Below are positions 1 through 10,606 of a DNA stretch of 12,347 nt, in pieces (the stretch's first letter is position 1; every line of letters starts with the position of its first letter). The stretch comes from a virus (Duplodnaviria; Heunggongvirae; Uroviricota; Caudoviricetes), in IMG/VR virus record IMGVR_UViG_2541047882_000003, positions 1-12,347 of that record; one strand, 5' to 3'. Below the pieces are notes generated by a model, which saw nothing but the letters and a program-made list of their open reading frames with translations, had not been told where the DNA came from and did not search any database. Made by a program: the position numbers and the translations under genes.

Positions 1-372
1 TTACTTCCTGCGTTTATCCTGCTTTGTATGCCCGTGCTGAATGCCCCGCAGTGGATCTTCTTTTTTCAGGTCGATCCCCATGTCCGTTAGTGTTTTTGTG
101 GCGGCGGTTCTTATGGCACAAATCAGGTCTCTTTCCGGTTCCCGGGTTATGGTTGCCTTCCGGATGCATGCCGTTCGTCGTTCCGTTACATACTGACGCG
201 CTTCATCACTTGCCGCCTGTTTCAGTAACTCACCCCAGCGATTAGCCGCCCGTCGCCATAAACCTTTCGCTTCCAGTTCTTCCGCTTTGTCATCATGCAC
301 CATAAGCATAATCCCATTGATACCTGTTAAATCTGAATGGTTGGTTTCTGTTCTTTTGATAATTTTCCGCAT
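1..372 (-). CDS. PerC-family-like small transcriptional regulator (paralog 1)
   Basis: Complete ORF of 123 aa (ATG as reverse complement of 370-372, TAA as reverse complement of 1-3). Motif DDKAEELEAKGLWRRAANRW matches the conserved core I associate with PerC/Pch activators and is shared with the 95-aa paralog at 4277..4564 (DSKAEELEAKGLYRRAAARW...CIR.A). No good SD at 372; alignment with the paralog suggests the real start may be the internal ATG at 303. Confidence 0.6.
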   Translation of the reverse strand: MRKIIKRTETNHSDLTGINGIMLMVHDDKAEELEAKGLWRRAANRWGELLKQAASDEARQYVTERRTACIRKATITREPERDLICAIRTAATKTLTDMGIDLKKEDPLRGIQHGHTKQDKRRK

Positions 373-387
373 AGCTTATTGTATGAC

Positions 388-399
388 AGTACTGTCCCA
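388..399. promoter_or_regulatory. 12-bp perfect palindrome GACAGTACTGTC in the 45-bp divergent intergenic region (candidate operator)
   Basis: Read directly: GACAGTACTGTC equals its own reverse complement, flanked by ATTGT...ACAAT. It lies between the divergent starts at 372 (-) and 418 (+). Confidence 0.35.
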
Positions 400-417
400 C
401 AATAAGGAGTTGCACGC

Positions 418-708
418 ATGAGAATGACCAGGCACAAAAAACAGATCCTTGAACTCTACAAACCTGAGTATCGCGATTGGGTGCGGGTGGAGGCTGGAGA
501 TCCACCTTTTGATGTTCGTGGTGTTACAGTGCTGCTCTATGGTTCCGAATATCAGCGATATCACATAGAGGCAACACGAAGGACGCTAAACGCTATGGTT
601 CGTGATAAGTTGCTGGAGCGTGTGAAAGTCCGTGAGCCACGTTTTGATGTGCGTATTGGTGGCGATGGTGCGCATTGCACGGTAATCCGCTATGGCCTGG
701 TAAGGTAA
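418..708 (+). CDS. hypothetical protein (96 aa)
   Basis: ATG at 418 preceded by a strong SD, AAGGAG at 405-410 (7-nt spacer). The ORF ends about 70 nt before a stem-loop plus T-run. No family recognised. Confidence 0.6.
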   Translation: MRMTRHKKQILELYKPEYRDWVRVEAGDPPFDVRGVTVLLYGSEYQRYHIEATRRTLNAMVRDKLLERVKVREPRFDVRIGGDGAHCTVIRYGLVR

Positions 709-738
709 GCCATCGGGTAAATCAGATGATTAAATCAC

Positions 739-760
739 CAGAATGTAAATTTACATTCTG
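739..760. repeat. 22-bp perfect palindrome CAGAATGTAAATTTACATTCTG between convergent genes
   Basis: Read directly; it is self-complementary over 22 bp. Could be a hairpin contributing to bidirectional termination or a protein-binding site. Confidence 0.5.
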
Positions 761-776
761 CCAGCCACCAGCTACC

Positions 777-803
777 CTCCTCAAAATTGAGGAGCCTTTT
801 TAT
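777..803 (+). terminator. candidate rho-independent terminator for the 418..708 gene
   Basis: 7-bp stem CTCCTCA/TGAGGAG (777-783 pairs with 788-794), 4-nt loop AAAT, then CC followed by TTTTT. Confidence 0.45.
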
Positions 804-810
804 CAACTGG

Positions 811-1101
811 TTACCGCCGTAACCGCTCCGGCTTCTTCCACTGGTAAGTCTTTTTCTCGCTCTCCCGGTACATCTGCACGCGGCGACGGTAGGCCAATAA
901 CTCGAGTACCCTGGTGCGTATGTCGCGCATATCCACTCCGTTAAGCTCAATACCGTCACGGCGCATCACCTCAGCCACCACACGCGCATAGTTCTCAGCG
1001 ATAACGCTGTCCGGCTGCGTGGCCTCCTGTTTGCCTGCTGGTGGTCTGATCCCGGCAATCTGGCGAATCATTTTGAGCATTTCGGCTTCGGTCATTGTCA
1101 T
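811..1101 (-). CDS. hypothetical protein (about 96 aa; alternative starts at 1095 or 1125)
   Basis: Long ORF 811..1125. GGAGG lies immediately upstream of the tandem ATGs at 1101 and 1095 (minus-strand sequence GGAGGCCATGACAATGACC), so I favour one of these over 1125. No family recognised. Confidence 0.5.
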   Translation of the reverse strand: MTMTEAEMLKMIRQIAGIRPPAGKQEATQPDSVIAENYARVVAEVMRRDGIELNGVDMRDIRTRVLELLAYRRRVQMYRESEKKTYQWKKPERLRR

Positions 1102-1390
1102 GGCCTCCAGAGGATGGGGAAACAATGCCGTAATTGTGGCGACTGATAACGGGAAGGTGAAGCGCGTTTAAGCTGGTGGATGTGGTGCCATGTTTCCCAC
1201 CAATGGTGGAAAAGCCCACCAGCGCAACGCAGGACGCATAAAACCATTGCGATGACTCATGACAGGGGGATAACCACAAAAACAACGTCAGCGGCGCGAT
1301 TCTGGCTGTTCCTGTCCGGGATGTGCATACGTATTACGTACGCAGTTAATCCGGCATAACGCATGACGTTGATGAAACGCCCCGATCATC

Positions 1391-1465
1391 GCGGGTCCTC
1401 CTGGATGGGTACCCTTACCGCGGGGCGACGGACGCGCGGAAAAAGGCTGGTTTTTGCATTTTCAT
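1391..1465 (+). other. cos-like site A (cosQ-like CGGGTCCTCCTGG, cosN-like dyad CCGCG-N10-CGCGG at 1418-1439); orphan, no terS downstream
   Basis: Alignable to the phage lambda cosQ-cosN junction as I remember it (lambda ACGGGTCCTTTCCGG...GTTACGGGGCGGCGACCTCGCGGG). The 36-bp core CCTTACCGCGGGGCGACGGACGCGCGGAAAAAGGCT is identical to inverted copy C at 4085..4170. Confidence 0.5.
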
Positions 1466-1865
1466 GGCGGCGGCAGCATGTGTGGTAATATATTGATAAT
1501 TAAAAGTTATTTCTGTTTTCACCTGTACAATCTTTTTTCTCCCCTGTCATTAGACCAGTTCGCAATCAATTGAAATATATAAATAAATCTGATTTTCACC
1601 TGCCAGATGGAGTTGCCAGTGTCAAATGTGAGCGGAAGCGGTGATGCTTATCACTGAATCATGCCGCATCACGATACCAGACTCCCGGTACCGCTGCGTG
1701 ATAACCCACAAGGCTGGTGGCGATGCGTTATGGTCCGTGCATTGCCATTCTCCTGGCCTGGTGGCATTATCCGGCATGAACGAGCGGTTATTCTCCGTAC
1801 TCTTAATCGTTGTTCATGGTTATTTTCTTTGTGGTAGCTGACTTCTTGATGTCCTTATCCTCCTG

Positions 1866-1890
1866 CCCCGTAATCACGGGGTATTTTTTT
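1866..1890 (+). terminator. rho-independent terminator (plus strand)
   Basis: CCCCG (1866-1870) / CGGGG (1877-1881) stem, 6-nt loop, followed by TATTTTTTT. The T-run is on the plus strand only. Confidence 0.5.
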
Positions 1891-2424
1891 ATCTGTGATT
1901 TGCTGTTCTTCGCTGTGTTGGTATGGGGAGTTCTGGCAATGGTTCAGGCCGTCGCTTTCCTGGTACGTGATTTTTTACGTTCATTATTGTGCTGGTGGCA
2001 GCGTCACGGTGTGTCACGACATGTCACCATCACGTCACGCTGATTGCGAAAGCCAGGATTAACCAGTACCGGAACGGGTAGCCCGGTGTATTGTTACCGT
2101 CCTGCCTGCTGGTGGAGTAATTGATAACGGTTATCATCAACGGGAGGGGCGGATCAAATCCCTGCAGTCCTGGCTGTCCGGGACCGCCCGCCTACCCTTG
2201 TTCACATCGCCGCAGGTTCGAAAACTTTTTTTTGGGAAGGTGTGCACAGACTTGATAGGTAAAACCTATCAGGTAAAGCCACGTCAAACCCGCGCCATTG
2301 CTGGCATCGTTAAAAAAACTCACTCCACCAGCAGGCTAAAAAACTGTGATTTTTCCAGCTTTTGGGGCTCAAAAAGGGCTCCCTAAAAAAACTCTCACAC
2401 TGTCGGAGGGGGCGGGAAATTTTC

Positions 2425-2640
2425 ACGGGTCCTTTCCGGGATCTGAAACACCGCGGGGCGGTAGACGCGCAGGATTTCACTATTTATGAAAATTTTTCAG
2501 GGGAAAAGCGTGTCGGTACTTCTCGCGCATAACTGTTTGTTTTTATTAAAATCAACCACCAGAAACATACGACATCATAAAGCCAAAAAATCCTGTTTTT
2601 TTGGCGTTTCATGTCGGAGGTGGTTTTTGATAATAAATTG
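2425..2640 (+). other. lambda-like cos site B (cosQ, cosN-like, cosB R3/I1-like elements); orphan, no terS downstream
   Basis: ACGGGTCCTTTCCGG at 2425-2439 is identical to the lambda cosQ 15-mer. After a 16-nt spacer comes CCGCGGGGCGGTAGACGCGC (lambda has GGGCGGCGACCT here). CTATTTATGAAAATTTT at 2480-2496 is identical to lambda positions just right of cosN. Further lambda-cosB-like text follows (CATAACT..GTTTTTATTAAAAT, then a dyad). The ORF at the Nu1-equivalent position is only 25 codons and unrelated to Nu1. Confidence 0.65.
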
Positions 2641-2756
2641 GTGGATTAATGTTAATAAAAATGTTTTTACTACCTGATGGAAACAACCGGAAACGTGCCG
2701 GAGAAATTACGGCAACAGAAAGGTGAGTGACAGCCGCGCAATTATTGAACAAAACT

Positions 2757-2953
2757 GAGAAAGGATCTGATAACGTCATTTTTGGCCCAAAATGCCTACT
2801 GTCAGATCCTTTCTTTTTTTGATGATTTTACGATTAAACAATGAGTTACAGAGAAGAAGAACGGATCTGACTTTTCCCGAAAAATTTTCATAAACAGTTA
2901 AGAATTGCGCGTACCCGTACCCCCGGCGCTTAAGGTTCCGGGAAGGACCCGCC
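2757..2953 (-). other. lambda-like cos site D, inverted relative to B (cosQ-like, cosN-like, R3-like, distal 13-bp inverted repeat)
   Basis: On the minus strand: GCGGGTCCTTCCCGG (reverse complement of 2938-2953), a GC dyad GCGCC..GCGC (reverse complement of 2905-2933), CTGTTTATGAAAATTTTTCG (reverse complement of 2878-2897, against lambda CTATTTATGAAAATTTTCCG), TCCGTTCTTCTTC..TAACT (against lambda TCCGTTCTTCTTCGTCATAACT), then a 13-bp perfect inverted repeat AGAAAGGATCTGA (2758-2770) / TCAGATCCTTTCT (2802-2814) resembling the lambda GAAAGGAAACGACAG...CTGTCGTTTCCTTTC dyad. Confidence 0.55.
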
Positions 2954-3067
2954 GGAGATAGCTACCATAAGGCGTAATTAAATATCCGTGGATGTGCCAC
3001 GGAACAACCAGCTGAATACAGGTCAGCGTGATGACGGGAAATAAAGAGAATGGTTGCGAATCCTCCA

Positions 3068-3092
3068 CCTGGTGAATCTCCTGCACTACCTG
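3068..3092. repeat. 25-bp direct repeat copy 1 (CCTGGTGAATCTCCTGCACTACCTG); duplicate of the terS 3-prime end
   Basis: Exact 25-bp match to 3444..3468, which encodes the last 8 codons of the terS-like gene. Copy 1 is not in an intact gene. Confidence 0.85.
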
Positions 3093-3364
3093 TCATTTTT
3101 GCGCAAATACCCCTGGCATTTCTAAGCATGATCAACCTGATCATTGTTCGCGGTTTTTACGTGGCAAGGCCAGTAATTACGGGGCTTACATCAATGTTTA
3201 TTCCGCCCATCTCTGCGCAAAACAACTTAACAAACCTTAACATCACAGGCGGAACCATTGCGCAAATCTGGAGGCTTACCGCACGCACCAGCCTGATACA
3301 TTGCCAGAATGAACGAGGTGCGACACAATGTGTGTGCATGTCTTACTCATTGAACCTCAATCAA

Positions 3365-3397
3365 GGCGCATCCTTAGCGGTGCGCTTTTATTTTTTT
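3365..3397 (+). terminator. candidate rho-independent terminator (plus strand)
   Basis: GCGCA (3365-3369) pairs with TGCGC (3380-3384), with possible extra CC/GG pairs, followed by TTTTATTTTTTTG. Confidence 0.4.
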
Positions 3398-3435
3398 GTC
3401 GTTCCCTGCTGGTGGATGTTTTCCGGTACCGCGAA

Positions 3436-3945
3436 TTATTCCCCCTGGTGAATCTCCTGCACTACCTGCGGCGTGCTGTCGTGCCAGTCGTTAGCCTGTA
3501 TCACTCTGGTAGTAATTTGCCTGCACAGGTCATCAATAATCTGCCTGACGCGGTTTACTGCGTTCTGATTGATGCCTGCATCGTGCGCCAGAATGTCGGG
3601 GAGTTTTGCCAGTTCCTCGCTTAAGATTTTCCCAAAAATAACCAACTCCCTGCGCACATCCACGGCGGGGATAAGTTCAGCCGTTTCCTGCTCGAACTTA
3701 AGGCGCTCACGCTCAGACTGGTACCAGGCTTTACGGCTTTGTGGATCCATGTCTTCGAGTGATGCGGGGGCGGGTATATTCATGAATGCGCTGATTATAT
3801 CCGTCAGTCGGTACAGCTTTAATTTTTCATGCCCTCCGGCTGGCTGAATGTCCTTTAGCCTTTTCGCTACTGTCTGGCGGCAAACTCCCGCCAGTTCTGC
3901 GAGTTGATTGATATTAAGTTTCAGGTTTTTAAGCTCCCGATCCAT
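3436..3945 (-). CDS. phage small terminase subunit, lambda Nu1 family (TerS-like); longest ORF extends to 3984
   Basis: N-terminal LNINQLAELAGVCRQTVAKRLKD...EKLKLYRLTDIISAF aligns with the lambda Nu1 winged-HTH region (VNKKQLADIFGASIRTIQNWQEQ...NEVLYDSAAVIKWY), and the length is similar (169-182 aa against 181). GGAGG lies 4 nt upstream of the ATG at 3945, so I favour that start. No large terminase ORF follows. Confidence 0.7.
   Translation of the reverse strand: MDRELKNLKLNINQLAELAGVCRQTVAKRLKDIQPAGGHEKLKLYRLTDIISAFMNIPAPASLEDMDPQSRKAWYQSERERLKFEQETAELIPAVDVRRELVIFGKILSEELAKLPDILAHDAGINQNAVNRVRQIIDDLCRQITTRVIQANDWHDSTPQVVQEIHQGE
3444..3468. repeat. 25-bp direct repeat copy 2 (within the terS 3-prime end)
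   Basis: Exact match to 3068..3092. Confidence 0.85.
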
Positions 3946-4084
3946 TCGTCCTCCGGTAGTTTTAAATGCGTATCGTGCGCTCATCTTTCAGTGGGTTAAA
4001 AGTGTTCTGTATGTTGAACAAAAAACACCCCAAATTAACATAGTAAAAATATATTTCATTTTAATTCAACATGTTGGAAAGATG

Positions 4085-4170
4085 ATGATGACGGATGAAA
4101 ATGTAAAAATTAGCCTTTTTCCGCGCGTCCGTCGCCCCGCGGTAAGGCCACCCCTCCGGAAGGACCCGTA
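4085..4170 (-). other. cos-like site C (inverted copy of A) about 140 bp upstream of the terS-like gene
   Basis: On the minus strand: ACGGGTCCTTCCGG (reverse complement of 4155-4168), then CCGCGGGGCGACGGACGCGCGG (reverse complement of 4120-4141), then AAAAAGGCT..ATTTTTACATTTTCAT. This is the lambda arrangement cosQ-cosN-cosB followed by Nu1, with similar spacing to the terS start. Confidence 0.55.
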
Positions 4171-4191
4171 AAAAAAGCCGGAGTGTTCCGG
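4169..4191 (-). terminator. rho-independent terminator after the PerC-like/FinO-like operon
   Basis: On the minus strand GCCGGAACACTCCGGC (6-bp stem, 4-nt loop) is followed by TTTTTTT, about 85 nt after the stop of 4277..4564. Confidence 0.6.
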
Positions 4192-4276
4192 CTTCGTCTG
4201 TGTATGTGCGCATATGCAGGATTTTATGTTATCCGCCCACGGGAGTGATGGTCATTTTTCAGGATAATATCCGGCA

Positions 4277-4564
4277 TCACTGGTTACCGCCAGGCTGCTT
4301 CGGGTAGTTCCGCCAGACGGATTTACCCGCGTCTTCCATCCCCATCACCGCATGAGTGCGGTTTACAGCCTCTTTCAGTGCCCCGAAGTTATCCGCCATA
4401 ACGGGTGGGCGTGCTGCCCTGCGGATGCATTCCGCGCGACGCTTTGCCACCTGTTCGCGCTCCTTATCGGTGTTCACCAGCTGCATGACCTCAGCCCACC
4501 GCGCCGCCGCTCTCCGGTACAGGCCTTTAGCCTCCAGTTCTTCCGCTTTGCTGTCACGAATCAT
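4277..4564 (-). CDS. PerC-family-like small transcriptional regulator (paralog 2)
   Basis: 95 aa with DSKAEELEAKGLYRRAAARWAEV, matching the paralog at 1..372. Its start overlaps the stop of the upstream gene (ATGA at 4561-4564), indicating translational coupling. Confidence 0.6.
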   Translation of the reverse strand: MIRDSKAEELEAKGLYRRAAARWAEVMQLVNTDKEREQVAKRRAECIRRAARPPVMADNFGALKEAVNRTHAVMGMEDAGKSVWRNYPKQPGGNQ

Positions 4565-5097
4565 GCGCCTGTCTTCTCCTTTGTCGCCTGACGTTTGCGC
4601 TTTTCATTCAGTGCTGCCAGCCGCGTTTCTGCCTCCTGCTGTTCCTGTGGTGTCACTTCCCCACATGGCTGGCCTTTCAGGTCGTAACGTGTGCCACCAG
4701 CCATTAAGGCGCGGTAATAGCGCGGAGACTGCGCATAAGATGCCAGCGTCGCACGTAATGCCCCCGGCCCGAATGTCAGCCCCCTGGCGGCGATATCCTG
4801 TATCAGGTCGTCGAATATCCCCACCTTAAGCGGCTTCGGTGCTTTATGGCTGAATAAGTCAGGCCACATCTCAGTGAGGCGGTTAACGCGTCGGCGGTTT
4901 TTGCGCTGCCTTTTGGTCATATGCTGCCACGGTGTCGCCCCTGCGGTCTTCTGTTTGCGGCTCTGCTGTGCGTTCTGATTATCGGGTATCACTTTATGCG
5001 CCGATGTGGTTTTATCCTGCTCTTGTGCCGCCTGCGTCGTTTTCTGCGGCGTGCCGTAAATGCCTTTCGGTTTTCGGTTAATGGTCAGCTTTGTCAT
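4561..5097 (-). CDS. ProQ/FinO-domain RNA-binding protein
   Basis: 178 aa. PLKVGIFDDLI and LRATLASYAQSPRYYRALMAGGTRYDLKGQPCGEVTPQEQQEAE align closely with the E. coli ProQ N-terminal FinO-like domain (PLKIGIFQDLV...LRSALRLYTSSWRYL..GATRVDLDGNPCGEL) as I remember it. It is preceded by a basic, Q/K-rich N-terminus. Confidence 0.8.
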   Translation of the reverse strand: MTKLTINRKPKGIYGTPQKTTQAAQEQDKTTSAHKVIPDNQNAQQSRKQKTAGATPWQHMTKRQRKNRRRVNRLTEMWPDLFSHKAPKPLKVGIFDDLIQDIAARGLTFGPGALRATLASYAQSPRYYRALMAGGTRYDLKGQPCGEVTPQEQQEAETRLAALNEKRKRQATKEKTGA

Positions 5098-5211
5098 GCC
5101 TTCCCCTGTAATTACGCTGTTCGCTGTTGTGAATTAAAACGGTATGTTATCCCCGTACGGGTCATCGTGCTGGCTTGTCTGTTGTTTTGCCCTGTTCAGT
5201 GCGTCAGTGGC

Positions 5212-5559
5212 CTAGCCCTGTTGACCTTTTTTGCCGCCCGGTCGCGCCGTTCGCGCACTGATTACGCTGTCTGCAATAACCTGCCAGCCCTGCCGCGTTT
5301 CCCCGTTCTGGCCTGTCCACTGGCTTACCTGCATGTTACCCGCCACGCTCACAAGTTCGCCTTTCTGGTGCTTTGCCAGTGCATCGGCCTGTCTGCCAAA
5401 TGCCAGGACGGATAACCACATCGTCGCCGTTCCGTCATCTGCCTGGCTGCACGGCAGGGGAACCGCCATACTCGCCATCGCCATTTGTGTCCCTTTGCTG
5501 GTGGTCTTTAACTGCGGGTCAGCCACCAGCCGCCCGTAAGCCGCTATCTGTGCTGTCAT
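5212..5559 (-). CDS. single-stranded DNA-binding protein-like (OB fold, no acidic C-terminal tail)
   Basis: 115 aa. IAAYGRLVADPQLK and TMWLSVLAFGRQADALAKHQKGELVSVAGNMQVSQWTGQNGETRQGWQVIADSV align with the E. coli SSB core (ILVGNLGQDPEV...[52 protein letters not shown]). GGAGAG lies 9 nt upstream; the start overlaps the upstream stop (ATGA). Confidence 0.7.
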   Translation of the reverse strand: MTAQIAAYGRLVADPQLKTTSKGTQMAMASMAVPLPCSQADDGTATMWLSVLAFGRQADALAKHQKGELVSVAGNMQVSQWTGQNGETRQGWQVIADSVISARTARPGGKKGQQG

Positions 5560-5906
5560 GCTGTATGCTCTCCGTTTTTAACGTTGATGGTTGTCACCTG
5601 TTCCGCTGTGCTGTTAGCCGGATACCATGCAAGCGTTCCCGGTTCATCTGAAAGAATGAATTTTGTGTCAGGCAAATACAGGCATTCGCAATATCCCTCT
5701 GCGCTGTGATGTGGTGTCATTCCCATATCACCAGTGAGTACCGGTAATATTTCAGAGTAAACCTCAGAATCACCGGAATAAAACACATCGCAAATCGCCC
5801 ATGCAGCAACCGGACTCCACCACTCGCCGCAATCGTCATTCCGGAATCTTGCCCACCAGCCAGGAACAGCCGGAGAAATGCTTTTTGGTATGGCTTCAAG
5901 AAACAT
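5556..5906 (-). CDS. hypothetical protein (116 aa, Trp-rich), translationally coupled to the SSB-like gene
   Basis: ORF with GAGGTG 7 nt upstream of the ATG at 5906. Its stop overlaps the SSB-like start. No family recognised. Confidence 0.55.
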   Translation of the reverse strand: MFLEAIPKSISPAVPGWWARFRNDDCGEWWSPVAAWAICDVFYSGDSEVYSEILPVLTGDMGMTPHHSAEGYCECLYLPDTKFILSDEPGTLAWYPANSTAEQVTTINVKNGEHTA

Positions 5907-5982
5907 AAAAACACCTCAATTTTTGTATATCTACAGAACCGTGTGGGTTACACCCGGCCTTTTTTCATCCATTACAGTGATA

Positions 5983-6133
5983 TTTTGCGGGTTATAATCG
6001 CGCTTTTGCGGGTTATTTAGGCCCATTTGCGGGTTATTTGGGGTATTTTGCGGGTTACGATTTTTCTGTCATTTCTTTAATAATCATATGGATACTGACT
6101 TATCCACAGAAATAACCCGCATAACCCGCAAAA
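5983..6133. repeat. iteron array (TTTGCGGGTTA x4 direct at 21-22 bp spacing, plus 2 inverted copies) with an AT-rich spacer; candidate replication origin
   Basis: Direct copies of TTTTGCGGGTTAT at 5983-5995, 6004-6016, 6025-6037 and 6047-6058. AT-rich stretch 6061-6100. Inverted copies ATAACCCGC (6112-6120) and ATAACCCGCAAAA (6121-6133). Located immediately downstream of the replication-protein stop at 6159. Confidence 0.6.
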
Positions 6134-6158
6134 TTTTCACCCTACACGCGAGAAAAAA

Positions 6159-8282
6159 TTAATCTTCTTCGCTTTCTGGCTGGAACATCAGCACGTAAAA
6201 AACATGCTGCTTCCCCCCAATCCTGCCGAGCGCCTTTTTCTTGTAACGGCGGTCGTTACCCTTTTCCAGCATCCCCGCCGCATCAAGCGCCCTTGCAAAA
6301 TGCGACGGATTAAATCCCTGTGCTATCTCACCCTCAAATACATGCGGGAACGTGTAAAAACGGAACTCGTCATCTTCGTTTCTGATACTCCCCTTTCTGT
6401 ATCCGGCAAGCTCTTTAATCGGTAAATCACGCTCGTCGGTGTTGGGCCACGGAAGGTATCTGCTGAATCCGAACGACGCTAAAAAAGCCTCTGCCTGTTC
6501 AACCATCTGTTTAAACTCCCTGTTACCCGTGCCGAATTCCTTCACCCAGGCATTAAAATTATGCTGAATGGCATCGCGGCATTCCTGCTCATCCCAGCCA
6601 GTAACATGACCGGAAAGCACAAGCGCGGCCTCCAGTATGGCGAAACGCTCACCCACACGGTGTACCTGCTCGCCGTAGCTCTCCGGTATCAGGTTGCGCC
6701 ACCGTTCTCGGCATGACCTTACCGTGTCCTTTGCCTCCTGCTGGTGGTCTGCCAGCCATTTAACCCATTCACGACCCGCCGCCCCGTGATTTTCTGTCCA
6801 GGCATCTTTTAACGCGTCTGCGTGCGCCTTTCCGGTGCTGTATTCGTGAAATTGTGTGGCTTTTTCCATCGGCACGTTAAGCAGGCGGACAAGCTGCCCC
6901 GCCTTGACTTTTATCCCCTCCGTTTTGAGGAATGTTTCAACGTCCATTTCTCCGGTACTGATTGCCACCGTTCTCCAGTGTTTTATCTCCCTGTTGCCGC
7001 CGTCCTTCGCCCCCTGTAATTTCCCGGAACCGTTAAACAGCGTATAAGCAGACGTTGACACCTCCCGCGCGTTTCCGGCCTGGCCTATTTCATCCAGGGG
7101 TAACAGCCCGTCGTTGTGTGCCTCTGCCTCGTTGGCGATACCTAACGCTGTACCGTACCAGGTCAGCCGTTGTGCGTCCGGCTCTCCCCATAAACTTGAT
7201 GCGATGTTCTGTGTGGTGGTTTTCCCTGCCGATGACTGTTCGAAAAGATGTACCCCGAAGCCGTCAGCACCCACCAGCCCGATTAATGGTGCAGATAACG
7301 ATACCGCCACACCCAGCATCATGGACGGATTACCACCAGCCAGCCGCGCAACGGTATCGCGCCAGCCTTCCGCCGTTCCTGCCACGGAATAGCCATTAAC
7401 AGCGGCAGTTTTTCCGGTAAACAGAATCGGTTTTTCAGACTCACCAATGACCGAACCGTCCGGCATGATGTACGCGCCAAAATGCCAGCCCGTTGTTGTG
7501 CTTAACTGCCATTCCTCATGGTTTCCGCTTAACTGCATCCAGTCAGCCAGGATAGCCCTGTATTTGCCGTTGGTTGTCACGTTCAGGCCGTGGTCTTTCA
7601 GCAACCGCCAGCCGTCACGGTCGCCAATGCCACCGCACGGAATCGCCATTGTGATGACTTCATGATTTGCTGGCTTTTTCCAGCGCATCACGCGGTAATG
7701 CTCTTTACCGATTGTCCCCGTTCCCAGTAGTTCAAGCGGGGAACATAACCACGTCTCAGGCCGGATAATTTCGCCTGACTGCTTGTCAACTTTTGGCGTT
7801 ACCCAGAAAACACCATCGGCGCGGCTTTCAACGCGGGGCTTTAATTCATCATCGCTATAGCTTCCTGTGGCTTTTTTCTTTAAGGGCAACACCAGACTTT
7901 CCCCGCGCTCGTATTCGTCTTTCAGCCGGGCAAGCTGTGGTGTCCAGTCCTCCAGTAAATCGCCGTTCTCGTCACAAAAACAGGCTTCCTTAACACCAGC
8001 CACTGCCAGCAGGGTTTCAATCTGTAGCGCCAGTTTGTCATCCAGTTTTCCGGCACGTCTGACGATGGCGCGTGACCGACCCTCATCCACAATACGCAGG
8101 TTTTCCAGATTACCCAGGTCACGCCGTCCGAGATAAACAGGTGGTATTTTGTCGCCGCGCTTTCTGGCTTCTCCGCCCTGCATGTAATGCTCTGCGTGGC
8201 TGTATGCGTCATCCCCCGCAAAAATCACTGCATCCTCGCCTTTATCTTTCGGTAACAGTTTTACGTTCGGTGCCAGTTTCAT
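6159..8282 (-). CDS. replication protein with P-loop NTPase domain (putative primase/helicase-type initiator of the element)
   Basis: 707-aa ORF. Walker A-like SSAGKTT and Walker B-like LLPLDE are visible. Its start overlaps the upstream stop (ATGA at 8279-8282) and an iteron array follows its stop. Assignment to a specific primase/helicase family is not verified. Confidence 0.75.
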   Translation of the reverse strand: MKLAPNVKLLPKDKGEDAVIFAGDDAYSHAEHYMQGGEARKRGDKIPPVYLGRRDLGNLENLRIVDEGRSRAIVRRAGKLDDKLALQIETLLAVAGVKEACFCDENGDLLEDWTPQLARLKDEYERGESLVLPLKKKATGSYSDDELKPRVESRADGVFWVTPKVDKQSGEIIRPETWLCSPLELLGTGTIGKEHYRVMRWKKPANHEVITMAIPCGGIGDRDGWRLLKDHGLNVTTNGKYRAILADWMQLSGNHEEWQLSTTTGWHFGAYIMPDGSVIGESEKPILFTGKTAAVNGYSVAGTAEGWRDTVARLAGGNPSMMLGVAVSLSAPLIGLVGADGFGVHLFEQSSAGKTTTQNIASSLWGEPDAQRLTWYGTALGIANEAEAHNDGLLPLDEIGQAGNAREVSTSAYTLFNGSGKLQGAKDGGNREIKHWRTVAISTGEMDVETFLKTEGIKVKAGQLVRLLNVPMEKATQFHEYSTGKAHADALKDAWTENHGAAGREWVKWLADHQQEAKDTVRSCRERWRNLIPESYGEQVHRVGERFAILEAALVLSGHVTGWDEQECRDAIQHNFNAWVKEFGTGNREFKQMVEQAEAFLASFGFSRYLPWPNTDERDLPIKELAGYRKGSIRNEDDEFRFYTFPHVFEGEIAQGFNPSHFARALDAAGMLEKGNDRRYKKKALGRIGGKQHVFYVLMFQPESEED

Positions 8283-8593
8283 TTTGCTTTTCCCCGTTCA
8301 CGAATAATTTCACGTACTGCCTTAATGCGTTCCATACCTGTAACGCGCATGATTCTGTCGATGTCGCTTAAGTTCGCTGGTGGTGCTTTGCTTACCAGGG
8401 TGAATTCACTCTCAAAACGCATATGTGACGACACGCAGGGATGCGCATAACCTTCGCGAATATAAGTCACGCGAAAATCGTCAACGGTTTTTATCGTTAT
8501 TCGTCCACCATATTTATCTTTGAAAATATCGCCGGGGCGGATTTCAGGCCGAGCGGGGCCGCTGGCAGTAAAGCCAGAAATTTTCTGTTTCAT
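8279..8593 (-). CDS. hypothetical protein (104 aa), coupled to the replication protein
   Basis: ORF with ATG at 8593; 4-nt overlap with the downstream rep start. No family recognised with confidence. Confidence 0.6.
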   Translation of the reverse strand: MKQKISGFTASGPARPEIRPGDIFKDKYGGRITIKTVDDFRVTYIREGYAHPCVSSHMRFESEFTLVSKAPPANLSDIDRIMRVTGMERIKAVREIIRERGKAK

Positions 8594-8598
8594 GGTTT

Positions 8599-8832
8599 TT
8601 ATTTCCCGGTGTGTTGTTCTTTATATCTGTCGTGCAAAAGATCTATTTCTTGTAGTTCCATTATTACCGGCTCAAGAAGCGTTATTAACGCCGTCGCAAT
8701 ATTGCTGTTGCGTTTATCTCTTTCATTATCGCCAAGCGTTCCAAGCCATAAGCGCAATATTTCAAGCATGTTTTCACTGTAAGCAAGAGCACGGTATGCA
8801 CGGTCTACTGTGTCATTGTAAATATCACACAT
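8599..8832 (-). CDS. hypothetical protein (77 aa)
   Basis: ATG at 8832 with GGAGG 9 nt upstream; overlaps the upstream stop by 8 nt (ATGTGTGA). Confidence 0.55.
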   Translation of the reverse strand: MCDIYNDTVDRAYRALAYSENMLEILRLWLGTLGDNERDKRNSNIATALITLLEPVIMELQEIDLLHDRYKEQHTGK

Positions 8833-9070
8833 GGCTTACATCCTCCGGGAATTTTCTTCTGTAACGCGCCTCTGCCACATATTCCGCATAGTCCGACGCA
8901 ATATTGAGAATCTCCGCACCCTCTGACCTGTAGCCACTGGTATTGATAAGAAAAAATGCGGCTTTTATCATGTCAGCAACGCCCAACAATGCGTCTGCTT
9001 CGTGTTCCGGTGCGCCATCAAATTCCTGTTTCAGGGCATTAAAACGATCATCACGCATAACCCCCCCCAT
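8825..9070 (-). CDS. hypothetical protein (about 82 aa from the ATG at 9070; track shows an alternative TTG start at 9085)
   Basis: The first in-frame ATG is immediately followed by the G8 tract (ATGGGGGGGG on the coding strand). Overlaps the end of the upstream ORF in another frame. Confidence 0.5.
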   Translation of the reverse strand: MGGVMRDDRFNALKQEFDGAPEHEADALLGVADMIKAAFFLINTSGYRSEGAEILNIASDYAEYVAEARYRRKFPEDVSHV

Positions 9071-9290
9071 TTTCACAATCAGCAATCAGGATAGCCCTGG
9101 CCTCATTCAGTGCCATATCAGCACTAAATTGCATAACAGCCAGTGAGTGAGGAACGAAAGCCCCGGCATATTCTGTTTCGCTGGTGGCGTACTTATGCGC
9201 CTTGTCTGCGATAACAGAAATATCAATCAGCGCATCAATCAGTGTTTTTATAGCTTCGGCGGCTGCGTCCGGACGGGTGTTATTGCACAT
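9051..9290 (-). CDS. hypothetical protein (79 aa)
   Basis: ATG at 9290 with AGGAGG upstream; the start overlaps the stop of the 68-aa ORF (ATGTGCAATAA). Its C-terminus is encoded across the G8 tract. Confidence 0.55.
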   Translation of the reverse strand: MCNNTRPDAAAEAIKTLIDALIDISVIADKAHKYATSETEYAGAFVPHSLAVMQFSADMALNEARAILIADCENGGGYA

Positions 9291-9486
9291 GGCGTACCTC
9301 CTGACGAATACGGGCGGCGAATACCATCACGCAACCAGCCGGGGATTGCTGGCGTGCTTCCTGTTCGCTGGTGGCCTCGATGGTAATCACGCGCGGTTGT
9401 GCCGTGCTCAGGGCGATAAAACGCCAGATGTATTTATTCAGGTTGTGCGAGTCCCGCCCTTGCTGGTGTGTGGTATAATTTCTCAT
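9280..9486 (-). CDS. hypothetical protein (68 aa), first gene of the leftward replication operon
   Basis: ATG at 9486 with GAGGT 6 nt upstream. It is the in-frame C-terminal part of the spurious 371-aa track ORF. Its stop overlaps the next start. Confidence 0.5.
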   Translation of the reverse strand: MRNYTTHQQGRDSHNLNKYIWRFIALSTAQPRVITIEATSEQEARQQSPAGCVMVFAARIRQEVRHVQ

Positions 9487-9581
9487 AGCTACCTCGATAC
9501 TCTCGTTATCGTTGGTGGTTAGAGGCTGCGAAAGGACGGCAATCCTTTCCAGCCTCGTTTGCATTGAGTGATAGTTACTCA

Positions 9582-9664
9582 ACTGGATTCCAGTATAATC
9601 ACTAAGTGGAATCCACTTCAAGCATTTTGTTTTGGTCTTTTTCGTGTATACTGGATTCCAGTAA
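9582..9664. promoter_or_regulatory. divergent control region with three odd-length palindromes (candidate operators) overlapping -10-like hexamers
   Basis: ACTGGATTCCAGT at 9582-9594 and again at 9651-9663 (CTGGA-T-TCCAG), and GTGGAATCCAC at 9607-9617. TATAAT at 9593-9598 and TATACT at 9647-9652 on the plus strand. Lies between the minus-strand operon start (9486) and the plus-strand small gene (9683). Confidence 0.45.
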
Positions 9665-9682
9665 TCACAAAGGAAACCAGAA

Positions 9683-9862
9683 ATGGAAAGAGACCATATC
9701 AATAACAAATCACAGAAATTACAGGCTCGCGCCCCGCATGAAGTTGTTGAGGCAATGGAGCAAGTCAAAGAAACGGGCGAGAGTACTGCGCAGTTTATCG
9801 TTACAGCCATGCGTGGCGAGATCAAACGCCGCCAGCGCCGCAAGGCCAAAGAGCAGGAGTAA
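9683..9862 (+). CDS. small ribbon-helix-helix-like DNA-binding protein (59 aa); candidate repressor
   Basis: Not in the supplied track (below its length cutoff). ATG at 9683 with AGGAA 7-8 nt upstream; TAA at 9860-9862. The translation MERDHINNKSQKLQARAPHEVVEAMEQVKETGESTAQFIVTAMRGEIKRRQRRKAKEQE has a strand-helix-helix pattern typical of Arc/CopG-type proteins. Confidence 0.5.
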   Translation: MERDHINNKSQKLQARAPHEVVEAMEQVKETGESTAQFIVTAMRGEIKRRQRRKAKEQE

Positions 9863-9919
9863 CCATCACCAGCGCCGTGGTGCGGTGAACTGTGGCGCAC
9901 AGGGTTATAGGTATCTACG

Positions 9920-10117
9920 ATGACTGACAAATCATTAAAGAAATTATCCTCATCCAGGAAAAAACAACGCAAAAACGCGGTAAGAGAACATGAACAGGAA
10001 AGATTCGCGCCATGTGCGTTTGTCCTTGAAAAGTTCCTTAAAGAGTACAGGCGCACAAAAATGGGATCGCATGCCTGGAAAACATCGCAGCATGGCGATA
10101 CTAAAGAGCAGGAATAG
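9920..10117 (+). CDS. hypothetical small basic protein (65 aa)
   Basis: ATG at 9920 with AGG 8 nt upstream; Lys/Arg-rich. Followed about 100 nt later by a plus-strand terminator. Confidence 0.4.
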   Translation: MTDKSLKKLSSSRKKQRKNAVREHEQERFAPCAFVLEKFLKEYRRTKMGSHAWKTSQHGDTKEQE

Positions 10118-10220
10118 CCCACCAGCAAGCCAGCACACTGATCACATTGCCCACCAGCCGCAAATGTGGCATTGTTGATTATGCTCATGCGTTGGCGATA
10201 ACGTGTAGCTTGTGTCGAAG

Positions 10221-10248
10221 GGCCACCGTAGCGGGTGGCCTTTGTTTT
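10221..10248 (+). terminator. rho-independent terminator for the plus-strand small genes
   Basis: GGCCACC (10221-10227) / GGTGGCC (10234-10240) stem followed by TTTGTTTT. Confidence 0.5.
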
Positions 10249-10399
10249 GCCTGTTATCCGGCAATTGTGGCGCTTCGCCACACGGTTGATATAATTCTCC
10301 TGCACTGATCCATTTTTTTCGCAGCAGGTTAATTGTTCGCAAGGGCGCTCCGGCAACGGGGCGCTTTTTGTTATGTTCATCGCGTTACGCCTCACACCA

Positions 10400-10606
10400 T
10401 TACGCAGCCGTTCCGCGCGCTTCTTCCTCGCGCTCTTTCAGCCAGGCCAGCACTTCATCTTCATACCAGCCAACACGACGCAGACCGATTTTGAAGCCTT
10501 TCGGGAATTTTCCGGCGTTGATCATGTCCTGTAGCGAACTGTCTGCCTTGATGCGCAGAATATTTTTTACTTCCTGACGGGTAAGTATTTTTCTGATTGT
10601 TTCCAC
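10400..10606 (-). CDS. alpA: AlpA-family phage transcriptional regulator
   Basis: 68 aa. ILTRQEV..IL........DMINAGKFPK...GLRRVGWYEDEVLAWL matches the AlpA pattern (LRL..V......A..T.Y.W......P...........VGW.E.E...WL). GAGGT about 8 nt upstream of the ATG. Position relative to a P4-type int is typical. Confidence 0.75.
   Translation of the reverse strand: METIRKILTRQEVKNILRIKADSSLQDMINAGKFPKGFKIGLRRVGWYEDEVLAWLKEREEEARGTAA

What the first reader, a model, noticed from the sequence alone, without database searches (positions are those of the whole stretch)
9683..10117. Unlisted 59-aa RHH-like ORF and a basic 65-aa ORF as candidate master regulators
The 59-aa ORF is absent from the supplied track (below its length cutoff) but has a good SD and an Arc/CopG-like pattern. 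Together with the downstream basic ORF and a shared terminator at 10221-10248 it forms a small rightward unit convergent with alpA. The spurious 371-aa minus-strand ORF covering this region would mask these genes in automated annotation.
Basis: partly seen in the sequence, partly recalled or inferred. Interest (0 to 1): 0.45.

Follow-up and report, generated by a model that had tools for sequence, protein, structure and literature searches.

The report
Candidate repressor of a phage satellite
The 59-codon gene is real, is already annotated in public genomes, and most likely encodes the missing repressor that keeps an E. coli phage-satellite island silent, while the long opposite-strand reading frame dismissed as spurious is itself kept open by selection.

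Summary
The window is an E. coli phage-inducible chromosomal island (a P4-like satellite) closely related to EcCICFT073.

- **Not hidden genes.** NCBI's annotation pipeline already calls them a "YlcI/YnfO family protein" and a "hypothetical protein".
- **The 59-aa protein.** It is conserved across Enterobacterales. Its own frame, not the antisense frame, carries the amino-acid constraint. Its model resembles ribbon-helix-helix (RHH) proteins, though weakly.
- **Operators.** Three 11-bp sites (9583-9593, 9606-9616, 9651-9661) overlap two back-to-back promoters. About 21 element-specific site versions track residues 12-15 of the protein's N-terminal strand (AMI 0.85-0.89). They do not track AlpA (0.29) or the Icd-like gene (0.26). 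I read it as an operator-specific repressor of the leftward replication operon, standing where P4 has its CI RNA, which is absent here.
- **orf65.** It is coding but weakly constrained, present in 66 of 158 relatives, and of unknown function.
- **The 371-aa minus-strand ORF is not spurious.** The frame stays open for a median of 320 codons in 146 relatives. It begins next to the alpA stop and ends in the Icd/Kil-like gene, like the nested eta/kil genes of P4. Synonymous sites of the RHH gene avoid creating stops in it.

All of this is computational; no binding or repression was tested.

The parts
9683..9862 (+). ylcI-like gene, 59 aa, predicted ribbon-helix-helix DNA-binding protein; candidate island repressor
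9670..9675 (+). Shine-Dalgarno-like AAGGAA for ylcI
   Evidence: Read from the sequence. An SD-like motif occurs in 97 of 102 distinct upstream regions.
9583..9593 (.). Operator-like site 1, CTGGATTCCAG; overlaps the -10 and start region of the leftward promoter
   Evidence: Exact match, one of only 3 in the window, all within 80 bp. Fixed position relative to the ylcI ATG in relatives, with an element-specific core.
9606..9616 (.). Operator-like site 2, GTGGAATCCAC; lies between -35 and -10 of the leftward promoter
   Evidence: Followed by NTCAAN (= TTGANN -35 on the minus strand) in 96 of 102 distinct upstream regions.
9651..9661 (.). Operator-like site 3, CTGGATTCCAG; directly follows the -10-like TATACT of the rightward (ylcI) promoter
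   Evidence: A TATACT-like hexamer precedes site 3 in 93 of 102 distinct upstream regions.
9592..9621 (-). Leftward promoter-like site (TTGAAG, 18 nt, TATACT) for the icd-like/primase operon; counterpart of P4 PLE
   Evidence: Consensus scan. The same site in EcCICFT073 scores 10 of 12.
9647..9652 (+). -10-like TATACT of the inferred ylcI promoter (weak -35)
   Evidence: Read from the sequence; conserved. Not found by the two-hexamer scan.
9920..10117 (+). orf65, a basic 65-aa protein of unknown function; accessory second gene of the rightward unit
   Evidence: phrog_21027, E 4e-46. 36 Escherichia relatives. Present in 66 of 158 loci. Plus frame favoured, p 0.009. AF2 mean pLDDT 63, two helices.
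10218..10252 (+). Intrinsic-terminator-like hairpin plus T-run ending the ylcI-orf65 unit
   Evidence: Also conserved in EcCICFT073.
9280..10395 (-). Long eta-like ORF (371 aa from GTG 10395; likely start ATG 10380 with GAGG at 10393-10390). Runs antisense through both plus-strand genes and the promoter region and ends in the Icd/Kil-like gene.
   Evidence: Stop-free for 385 codons against 10-24 stops in the other frames. Median 320 codons open in 146 loci. Starts next to the upstream gene's stop. No amino-acid constraint outside icd. T-ending codons avoided before CAN/TAN inside ylcI.
9280..9486 (-). icd/kil-like gene, 68 aa, nested at the 3' end of the long ORF; first annotated gene of the leftward operon
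   Evidence: NF033153, E 1.5e-19. The P4 137-aa 'cI' ORF carries the same domain at its C-terminus. Minus frame pN/pS 0.31.
10400..10606 (-). alpA, the activator gene whose stop abuts the start of the long ORF
   Evidence: Pfam Phage_AlpA. Its role in EcCICFT073 comes from PMC6092414.
9523..9557 (-). Structured hairpin in the leader of the leftward transcript
   Evidence: -24.2 kcal/mol, z -5.3. The structure is kept with different stem sequences in relatives.

Best explanation
The window is a Gram-negative phage-inducible chromosomal island of the EcCICFT073 type. Its order is int, alpA, [ylcI-like, orf65 on the other strand], icd/kil-like, and so on to the primase.

The 59-aa product is a small ribbon-helix-helix DNA-binding protein. 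As a dimer it would bind three 11-bp sites of the form (G/C)TG-N5-CA(C/G).
- Sites 1 and 2 cover the spacer, the -10 and the start region of the leftward promoter, which drives the icd/kil-like gene and the primase operon. Binding there would keep replication and the cell-division inhibitor off in the resting island.
- Site 3 sits at the start of its own promoter, so the protein would autoregulate.

This is the job done in P4 by the CI RNA, which this lineage lacks.

Induction would bypass the repressor. The helper phage turns on alpA, and AlpA activates its own promoter. That transcript runs leftward through the region while ribosomes translate the long eta-like ORF that starts next to the alpA stop. 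As in P4, translation would protect the transcript from premature termination. The leftward transcription runs antisense across ylcI and orf65 and should also shut off repressor synthesis.

orf65 is a real but dispensable small helical basic protein co-transcribed with ylcI; its function is unknown.

**Shown here:** the genes, their conservation and coding frames; the operator-like sites and their covariation with the strand residues; the conserved open antisense frame and the selection that maintains it; the absence of a CI RNA match.

**Inferred:** DNA binding, repression, the promoters, protection from termination, and transcriptional interference.
For: **Gene and fold**
- NF041551 hit; 108 relatives of 59-64 aa.
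- AF2 mean pLDDT 84 with helices at 19-28 and 35-58.
- Sub-threshold hits to PSK_trans_fac, RHH_1, TacA1 and HicB-like families among distant relatives.
- hhalign puts Arc residues 9/11/13 opposite YlcI residues 12/14/16.

**Coding frame**
- Plus frame pN/pS 0.41, the lowest of the six frames.
- Changes synonymous in plus and non-synonymous in minus: 20 observed against 10.7 expected. The reverse class: 16 against 24.5.

**Operators**
- Three exact sites within 80 bp and none elsewhere in the window.
- Fixed at -99/-76/-31 from the ATG in relatives, with about 21 class-specific cores shared by the copies within an element.
- AMI of the core with strand residues 12-15 is 0.85-0.89. With AlpA alleles it is 0.29, with icd alleles 0.26-0.28, with the next leftward gene 0.19, and with the YlcI C-terminal tail 0.31.

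**Promoter overlap**
- Consensus scan hits in the window and in EcCICFT073.
- Promoter elements are conserved while the operator cores vary.

**No CI RNA**
- No Rfam C4 or isrK match, while P4 scores 75 and 61 bits as a positive control.

**Long ORF**
-.
- P4 logic as summarised in PMC10111431.
- The P4 ORF carries the Icd-like domain.

**AlpA**
- AlpA is an activator, sufficient for induction, and activates a fusion to 'ORF3'. The existence of a repressor in Gram-negative islands was 'unclear' (PMC6092414).
Against: - There is no experimental evidence of binding or repression.
- Operators and the gene's 5' end lie 30-100 bp apart, so part of the covariation is linkage. The controls with icd and alpA reduce this concern but do not remove it.
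- The rightward promoter has a poor -35 and was not found by the scan.
- A bound repressor might also block read-through from alpA; this is unexamined.
- No YlcI-type site lies near alpA, so the protein cannot by itself explain dependence on the helper phage.
Confidence: 0.55

Rival explanations
1. The two plus-strand ORFs form a type II toxin-antitoxin pair: an RHH antitoxin (59 aa) followed by a small basic toxin (65 aa). The operators would serve only to autoregulate the pair.
Against: orf65 matches no toxin family in Pfam, NCBIfam or PADLOC. It is absent from 92 of 158 loci that keep ylcI and the operators, and from the twelve loci of other genera (L003-L014). The genes are 57 nt apart rather than overlapping. 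The RHH protein has only a short basic tail and no toxin-binding extension. Two of the three sites lie on the leftward promoter, not on its own.
Confidence: 0.05
2. The RHH protein binds the three sites but is not the maintenance repressor. It could act after induction, like a Cro- or Cox-type switch protein, or as an activator or architectural factor for the leftward promoter.
For: The site layout shows only that it acts on both promoters. Its own promoter looks weak. The experiments in PMC6092414 could explain induction by AlpA alone.
Against: Sites between -35 and -10 and over the transcription start are typical of repression. The gene is oriented against the induced leftward transcription, which would silence it during induction rather than express it. 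The hypervariable protein-operator pairs resemble phage immunity modules.
Confidence: 0.17
3. The three sites are recognised by another factor, such as AlpA, a product of the leftward operon, or a helper-phage or host protein. Their match with YlcI-like variants would then be only co-inheritance of adjacent DNA.
For: The sites lie within 100 bp of the gene's 5' end, and helix segments not expected to read bases also track operator type (AMI 0.75-0.80).
Against: Equally close or nearby genes do not track the sites: icd 0.26-0.28, the next gene 0.19, AlpA 0.29. One AlpA allele cluster occurs with four operator types. A host factor could not explain about 21 element-specific cores. The most variable residues align with the base-contacting residues of Arc.
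Confidence: 0.1
4. One or both plus-strand ORFs are non-coding shadows of the long minus-strand ORF, with which they share third codon positions.
For: Both lie in the one frame that shares third positions with the minus-strand ORF (and the sequence). For orf65 the two frames differ little: pN/pS 0.29 against 0.38, constraint is weak and the structure model is poor.
Against: For ylcI this is excluded in practice. It is a family member with an RHH-like pattern, the plus frame is the constrained one, and the minus frame shows no constraint beyond staying open. For orf65, discordant changes favour the plus frame (30 of 61 against 0.33 expected, p 0.009), and it has its own PHROG family.
Confidence: 0.08

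Closest known systems
Satellite phage P4 immunity and late read-through region (vis, nested eta/kil, CI RNA, promoters PLE and PLL)
   Same: The order is the same: an AlpA/Vis-type gene, a long ORF starting at its stop, an internal leftward promoter, an Icd/Kil-like gene nested at the 3' end of the long ORF, then the primase. Literature summarised in PMC10111431 says translation of eta lets the upstream promoter read through.
   Different: P4 blocks the internal promoter's transcripts with the CI RNA and its target sites (Rfam C4 and isrK, found in P4). This island has neither. In the corresponding place it carries an opposite-strand RHH gene and three protein-type operators. No plus-strand gene is annotated inside eta in the P4 record.
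EcCICFT073, the model Gram-negative phage-inducible chromosomal island
   Same: It has the same module: Icd-like gene, YlcI/YnfO-family gene (69% identical), a shorter orf65 relative, both terminators and alpA. AlpA is the activator, and the existence of a repressor was 'unclear' (PMC6092414).
   Different: The operator cores differ (TGGCC/TCCCC against GAWTC), as do strand residues 12-15 (ALKA against KLQA) and the AlpA, integrase and primase alleles. None of the papers found discusses these two small genes.
Arc/Mnt (phage P22 immI) and CopG-type ribbon-helix-helix repressors
   Same: They are small proteins of about 45-60 aa with a strand-helix-helix pattern and a G-x-S/T turn. They bind short repeated operators overlapping promoters and autoregulate. 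The variable residues align with the base-contacting positions of Arc.
   Different: No significant sequence similarity at database level. The site is an 11-bp unit with GTG/CAC ends present in three separated copies. The gene lies antisense inside a translated ORF.
Stl/Rpr master repressors of Gram-positive islands (SaPIs)
   Same: Stl/Rpr is a regulator gene divergent from the excision and replication operon that keeps the island silent (PMC6092414).
   Different: The predicted fold here is RHH, and no similarity to Stl/Rpr was tested or found. Derepression in SaPIs is by a helper protein binding the repressor. Here induction goes through AlpA, and no contact with the helper is known.
E. coli K-12 YlcI and YnfO (DLP12 and Qin prophages; Pfam DUF3950)
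   Same: They belong to the same NCBIfam family and show the same RHH-like pattern.
   Different: YlcI is only about 20% identical. The window protein does not hit Pfam DUF3950, whereas YlcI does. YlcI sits beside the terminase gene nohD in a lambdoid prophage, not in a satellite regulatory region.

Membership tests
YlcI/YnfO family (NCBIfam NF041551) | Score above the curated cutoff of the family model | tested here: met
   72.3 bits against a cutoff of 30, E 2.4e-20, residues 9-50.
Pfam DUF3950 (PF13132) | Match to the Pfam model | tested here: not met
   No hit for the window protein. K-12 YlcI hits at E 1.9e-20.
Ribbon-helix-helix superfamily (Arc/MetJ/CopG) | Strand-helix-helix topology | tested here: inconclusive
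   The AF2 monomer shows helices at 19-28 and 35-58, but residues 13-16 come out helical rather than as a strand. The strand of an RHH protein forms only in the dimer, which could not be modelled.
Ribbon-helix-helix superfamily (Arc/MetJ/CopG) | Structural similarity to solved RHH proteins | tested here: inconclusive
Ribbon-helix-helix superfamily (Arc/MetJ/CopG) | Sequence-profile match to a curated RHH family | tested here: not met
   PSK_trans_fac at E 0.027, below its cutoff. Distant relatives give RHH_1 at 4.5e-4 and PSK_trans_fac at 2.9e-4, not shown to reach the curated cutoffs. The PDB profile search was negative.
Ribbon-helix-helix superfamily (Arc/MetJ/CopG) | Strand residues determine operator specificity | tested here: met
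   This is indirect. Residues 12-15 track the operator core (AMI 0.85-0.89), while flanking genes do not. They align with Arc residues 9/11/13.
Ribbon-helix-helix superfamily (Arc/MetJ/CopG) | Obligate dimer | not testable with these tools
   Only single chains can be predicted.
P4-type eta/kil read-through module | Icd/Kil-like domain nested at the 3' end of a longer same-frame ORF | tested here: met
   NF033153 matches residues 322-365 of the 371-aa ORF. P4 has the same arrangement.
P4-type eta/kil read-through module | The long ORF starts at or next to the stop of the alpA/vis homologue | tested here: met
   The alpA stop is at 10400-10402, with GTG at 10395 and ATG at 10380 preceded by GAGG. 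In P4, ATGs at 8767-8761 abut the vis stop. In 83 of 135 loci the first start codon lies within -35 to +15 nt of the upstream stop.
P4-type eta/kil read-through module | Translation of the long ORF prevents premature termination | not testable with these tools
   This is supported only indirectly: by selection for an open frame without amino-acid constraint.
P4-type CI RNA immunity | CI RNA (Rfam C4) and seqA-like target (isrK) inside the long ORF | tested here: not met
   No match in the window, L001 or EcCICFT073, even at E up to 10. P4 scores 74.9 and 60.8 bits.
Type II toxin-antitoxin system | Obligatory adjacent toxin gene of a recognisable family | tested here: not met
   orf65 has no toxin hits and is present in only 66 of 158 loci.
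Gram-negative phage-inducible chromosomal island | int, alpA and a primase-type replication gene in the canonical order next to a tRNA or host attachment site | tested here: met
   The annotated twin locus has integrase, AlpA-type HTH, DUF927 primase, SSB and PerC genes next to tRNA-Pro. It is homologous to EcCICFT073.

The most novel reading that the evidence does not exclude
This family of Gram-negative phage satellites has replaced the RNA-based immunity of P4 with a protein repressor. The repressor is a hypervariable RHH protein whose strand residues and three operators have diversified together into about 20 specificity (immunity) classes. Its gene is embedded antisense inside a long ORF that is translated for the sake of translation and carries the induced read-through transcript. 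Induction and repression would then be two convergent, mutually exclusive readings of the same DNA, with both strands under selection: amino-acid constraint on one, and stop avoidance on the other.
Probability: 0.4. Interest if true: 0.72.

Novelty: new variant of a known kind. Interest (0 to 1): 0.6.

Why it matters
The founding paper on Gram-negative phage-inducible chromosomal islands states that whether they have a global repressor is unclear, and that only the activator AlpA is known (PMC6092414). Sequences similar to this region occur in 1420 of 5426 complete E. coli genomes.

A candidate repressor with mapped operators in the model island EcCICFT073 makes that question directly testable, using a gel shift, a reporter fusion and one deletion.

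The roughly 20 matched protein-operator classes would define immunity groups among co-resident satellites. They would also offer a natural set of orthogonal small repressors.

The region is also a clean bacterial example of selection acting on both strands at once. It is a caution for annotation, because neither the short genes nor the long frame should be discarded as an artefact of the other.

Tried and rejected
**Searches that found nothing**
- A profile search of PDB sequences with the family alignment found nothing relevant.
- Foldseek against the PDB had no significant hit.
- tblastn of the 59-aa protein against 50,697 phage records found no match, so lambdoid YlcI/YnfO had to be fetched from K-12 directly.
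- Rfam at gathering and at permissive thresholds gave only chance-level hits, such as the R1162 antisense RNA at E 0.23 in the icd leader.
- PADLOC gave no defence-system hit.

**Limited or failed analyses**
- The orf65 structure came out at mean pLDDT 63, too poor for a fold search.
- The P4 paper by Forti et al. 1999 (PMC94026) is not held, so P4 biology is cited through the summary in PMC10111431.
- Window-coordinate frames cannot be used for stop counts in the highly divergent leader because of indels, so frames were scored in each locus's own coordinates instead.
- A Markov simulation of the open frame timed out and was replaced by a composition estimate.

**Ideas considered and rejected**
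- A toxin-antitoxin pair.
- AlpA as the operator-binding factor.
- ylcI as a shadow ORF.

Full report
**What is there.** The two plus-strand ORFs exist as described: 9683-9862 (59 aa) and 9920-10117 (65 aa, net basic). They share one frame. An AAGGAA lies 8 nt before the first ATG. The second ORF has only a weak AGG. A hairpin at 10218-10243 followed by TTTGTTTTG is terminator-like; folded in its 51-nt context (10205-10255) it gives about -20 kcal/mol. The unit is convergent with alpA (10400-10606, minus strand).

**Context.** A 1-kb query around the finding matches 1420 of 5426 complete E. coli genomes. In a 99% identical genome the order is tRNA-Pro, integrase, a small ORF, an AlpA-type HTH gene, then on the other strand a "YlcI/YnfO family protein" and a "hypothetical protein". 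After these come an Icd-like protein, small ORFs, DUF4222, a DUF927 primase, SSB, ProQ/FinO and PerC. This is a Gram-negative phage-inducible chromosomal island. The model island EcCICFT073 carries the same module.

Both ORFs are therefore already called by NCBI's pipeline, and both have PHROG families of unknown function.

**The 59-aa gene is real and RHH-like.**
- It matches NCBIfam NF041551 (72 bits, cutoff 30), but not Pfam DUF3950.
- It has 108 relatives of 59-64 aa in Escherichia, Salmonella, Klebsiella, Serratia, Yersinia, Xenorhabdus, Pantoea, Pectobacterium and others. An exhaustive profile search found only 93 cluster representatives among 1.84 billion proteins, so the family is narrow.
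- The AF2 model has mean pLDDT 84, with helices at 19-28 and 35-58.
- Distant relatives give sub-threshold hits to RHH families.
- hhalign against Arc and CopG aligns strand, helix A, the G-x-S turn and helix B in register, with single-comparison E of 0.009 and 0.014.

I take the RHH assignment as likely but not proven.

**Coding frames.** In a 44-sequence alignment, the plus frame of ylcI has the lowest pN/pS of the six frames (0.41). The antisense frame that shares its third positions comes next (0.60).

On a parsimony tree, changes synonymous in plus but non-synonymous in minus number 20 against 10.7 expected. The reverse class numbers 16 against 24.5. The icd control gives the opposite pattern, as it should.

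For orf65 with 43 distinct sequences, the discordant classes split 30 to 31 against an expected plus-favouring fraction of 0.33 (p 0.009). Overall constraint is weak. orf65 relatives occur in 66 of 158 unique loci. They are absent from the twelve loci of other genera (L003-L014). Its model is poor, at pLDDT 63 with two helices. orf65 is a real but accessory gene of unknown function.

**Operators.** The 196-bp gap between the icd-like start and the ylcI start holds three exact copies of (G/C)TGGAWTCCA(G/C), at 9583-9593, 9606-9616 and 9651-9661. None occurs elsewhere in the window, even with one mismatch allowed.

In relatives the sites sit at fixed distances from the ATG (-99, -76, -31). The five central bases differ between elements, and within an element the three copies are identical or near-identical (sometimes inverted). 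About 21 classes were seen, for example GAWTC, GCACC, TGGCC, TCAGC, TCTTA, AATCG and AAATA.

Each class goes with its own residues 12-15 of the protein, for example KLQA, KMSA, ALKA, KLEA, SVTA, QLNA and MTTV. The table gives the adjusted mutual information (AMI) between the operator core and each neighbouring feature:

| Feature compared with the operator core | AMI |
|---|---|
| YlcI strand residues 12-15 | 0.85-0.89 |
| AlpA allele clusters | 0.29 |
| Icd-like alleles (equally close on the other side) | 0.26-0.28 |
| Next leftward gene | 0.19 |
| YlcI C-terminal tail | 0.31 |

One AlpA cluster, the window's own, occurs with four operator types. Residues 12, 14 and 16 align with Arc Gln9, Asn11 and Arg13, which by established knowledge contact the bases. 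Residue 16 is invariant, as are the GTG/CAC ends of the sites.

The sites overlap promoter elements that stay conserved while the cores vary:
- Site 2 lies between a minus-strand -35 (TTGAAG or TTGACG) and a -10 (TATACT or TATAGT). Site 1 lies over the start region.
- Site 3 follows a plus-strand TATACT. The counts in 102 distinct upstream regions are 96 for the -35 element and 93 for the plus-strand -10.

**The minus-strand ORF is not spurious.** The frame of the 371-aa ORF is open for 385 codons at 50% G+C. The other five frames have 10-24 stops over the same span. From composition, the chance is about 1.5e-8 overall, and 2.4e-4 for the 178 codons outside annotated genes.

In 146 unique related loci this frame is open for a median of 320 codons, and in only 6 for fewer than 150. 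The other two antisense frames have medians of 14 and 30.

The frame ends in the Icd-like gene. The first possible start lies within -35 to +15 nt of the stop of the upstream leftward gene (alpA or a Bro-type gene) in 83 of 135 loci. In the window the alpA stop is at 10400-10402, followed by GTG at 10395 and by ATG at 10380 behind a GAGG.

P4 has the same design. Its 137-aa "cI" ORF carries the Icd-like domain at its C-terminus. That frame is open back to ATGs abutting the vis stop. The literature describes eta/kil as nested genes, with eta coupled to the alpA homologue, whose translation prevents termination of the late transcript (PMC10111431).

Outside icd, the long frame shows no amino-acid constraint: pN/pS is 1.07 in the leader, and no depletion of minus-strand non-synonymous changes is seen inside ylcI. 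What is selected is openness:
- In this register a minus-strand stop arises from NNT-CAN, NNT-TAN or NNC-TAN on the plus strand.
- In 110 distinct ylcI sequences, T-ending codons make up 7 of 497 codons before CAN or TAN, against 1188 of 3717 elsewhere (p 3e-65).
- With one sequence per class the counts are 2 of 85 against 233 of 728 (p 4e-11).
- No stop-creating change was inferred in orf65, against 6.7 expected.

**No RNA immunity.** Rfam finds C4 (the CI RNA) and isrK (seqA) in P4. It finds nothing in the window, its twin locus or EcCICFT073.

**Model.** In the resting island the RHH protein holds the internal leftward promoter shut and limits its own synthesis. When a helper phage switches on alpA, AlpA activates its own promoter and a fusion to "ORF3" (PMC6092414). 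The alpA transcript would continue leftward under cover of translation of the long ORF. It would cross ylcI and orf65 antisense, silencing them, and express icd, the primase and the rest.

The genes, sites, covariation and frame selection are shown here. Binding, repression, promoter activity, protection from termination and interference are inferred.

**Literature.** No held paper links YlcI/YnfO-type or RHH proteins to island regulation. PMC10111431 describes a "Bro zone" with immunity RNAs but not this gene.

**Verdict.** It offers a testable answer to the open question of how these islands are repressed.

Noticed in passing
window 9523-9557 (minus-strand RNA), with the invariant stretch 9487-9522: The leader of the icd-like gene has a strong hairpin (-24.2 kcal/mol, z -5.3). 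Its stems differ in sequence between relatives but still pair. It is followed by an invariant CUAACCACCAACGAUA...GUAUCGAGGUAGCU running up to the icd start codon. There is no U-run, so it is not an intrinsic terminator. Its function is unknown, and it sits where P4 has its CI RNA.
   Followed up: partly
window 10281-10376, + strand: This is a candidate small RNA of about 80 nt. It has a perfect extended -10 (TTGATATAAT), two hairpins (-30.7 kcal/mol, z -4.1) and a second plus-strand terminator at 10341-10368. It is antisense to the first codons of the long eta-like ORF. The same module lies in EcCICFT073 (L002 9842-9930) and in 28 of 146 loci, at a fixed 58-nt spacing. It could block translation of the long ORF from basal alpA transcripts.
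   Followed up: partly
L017 911-1138 and 12 other loci: A second family of 75-aa plus-strand ORFs occupies the orf65 position. It shares with orf65 the motif F-x-L-E-x-F-x-x-x-Y-x-R-R, so a second small gene may be more widespread than BLAST detects.
   Followed up: no
window 9280-10606 compared with L033, L132, L136, L175, L021 and others: The region is mosaic. alpA with its 3' flank is 95-98% identical to loci whose ylcI-operator segment is only 71-82% identical, and icd is nearly invariant across operator classes. Exchange points lie in the YlcI C-terminal tail and between the operators and icd, as in phage immunity regions.
   Followed up: partly
L176 4252-4446 (E. coli K-12 ylcI, DLP12 prophage): K-12 YlcI shows the same strand-helix-helix pattern (RNIRFPNQMIEQINIALEQKGSGNFSAWVIEACRRRL). 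It lies 388 bp from the terminase gene nohD, on the opposite strand. Its function in lambdoid prophages is also unknown.
   Followed up: partly
window 9280-9560 (C-terminal 93 aa of the long ORF); L015 8168-8584: PHROGs 6196 and 1743 and the P4 RefSeq record label the Icd/Kil-like ORF 'transcriptional repressor' or 'cI gene product'. From what I know of P4, and not from anything retrieved here, this label probably dates from before the P4 immunity factor was identified as an RNA. It is misleading for homologues.
   Followed up: partly
window 1-9280 (via L001): The island also carries two PerC-family regulators, a ProQ/FinO-family protein, an SSB, a DUF1441 protein and several small conserved ORFs of unknown function (phrog_2512, 5146, 2196).
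   Followed up: no
L003, L006, L007, L009, L010, L013, L014: In other genera a Bro-N/AntA-like gene sits between alpA and the long ORF. The long ORF then starts at that gene's stop, often with a 4-nt overlap. The coupling is therefore to whatever gene lies upstream, not to alpA specifically.
   Followed up: partly
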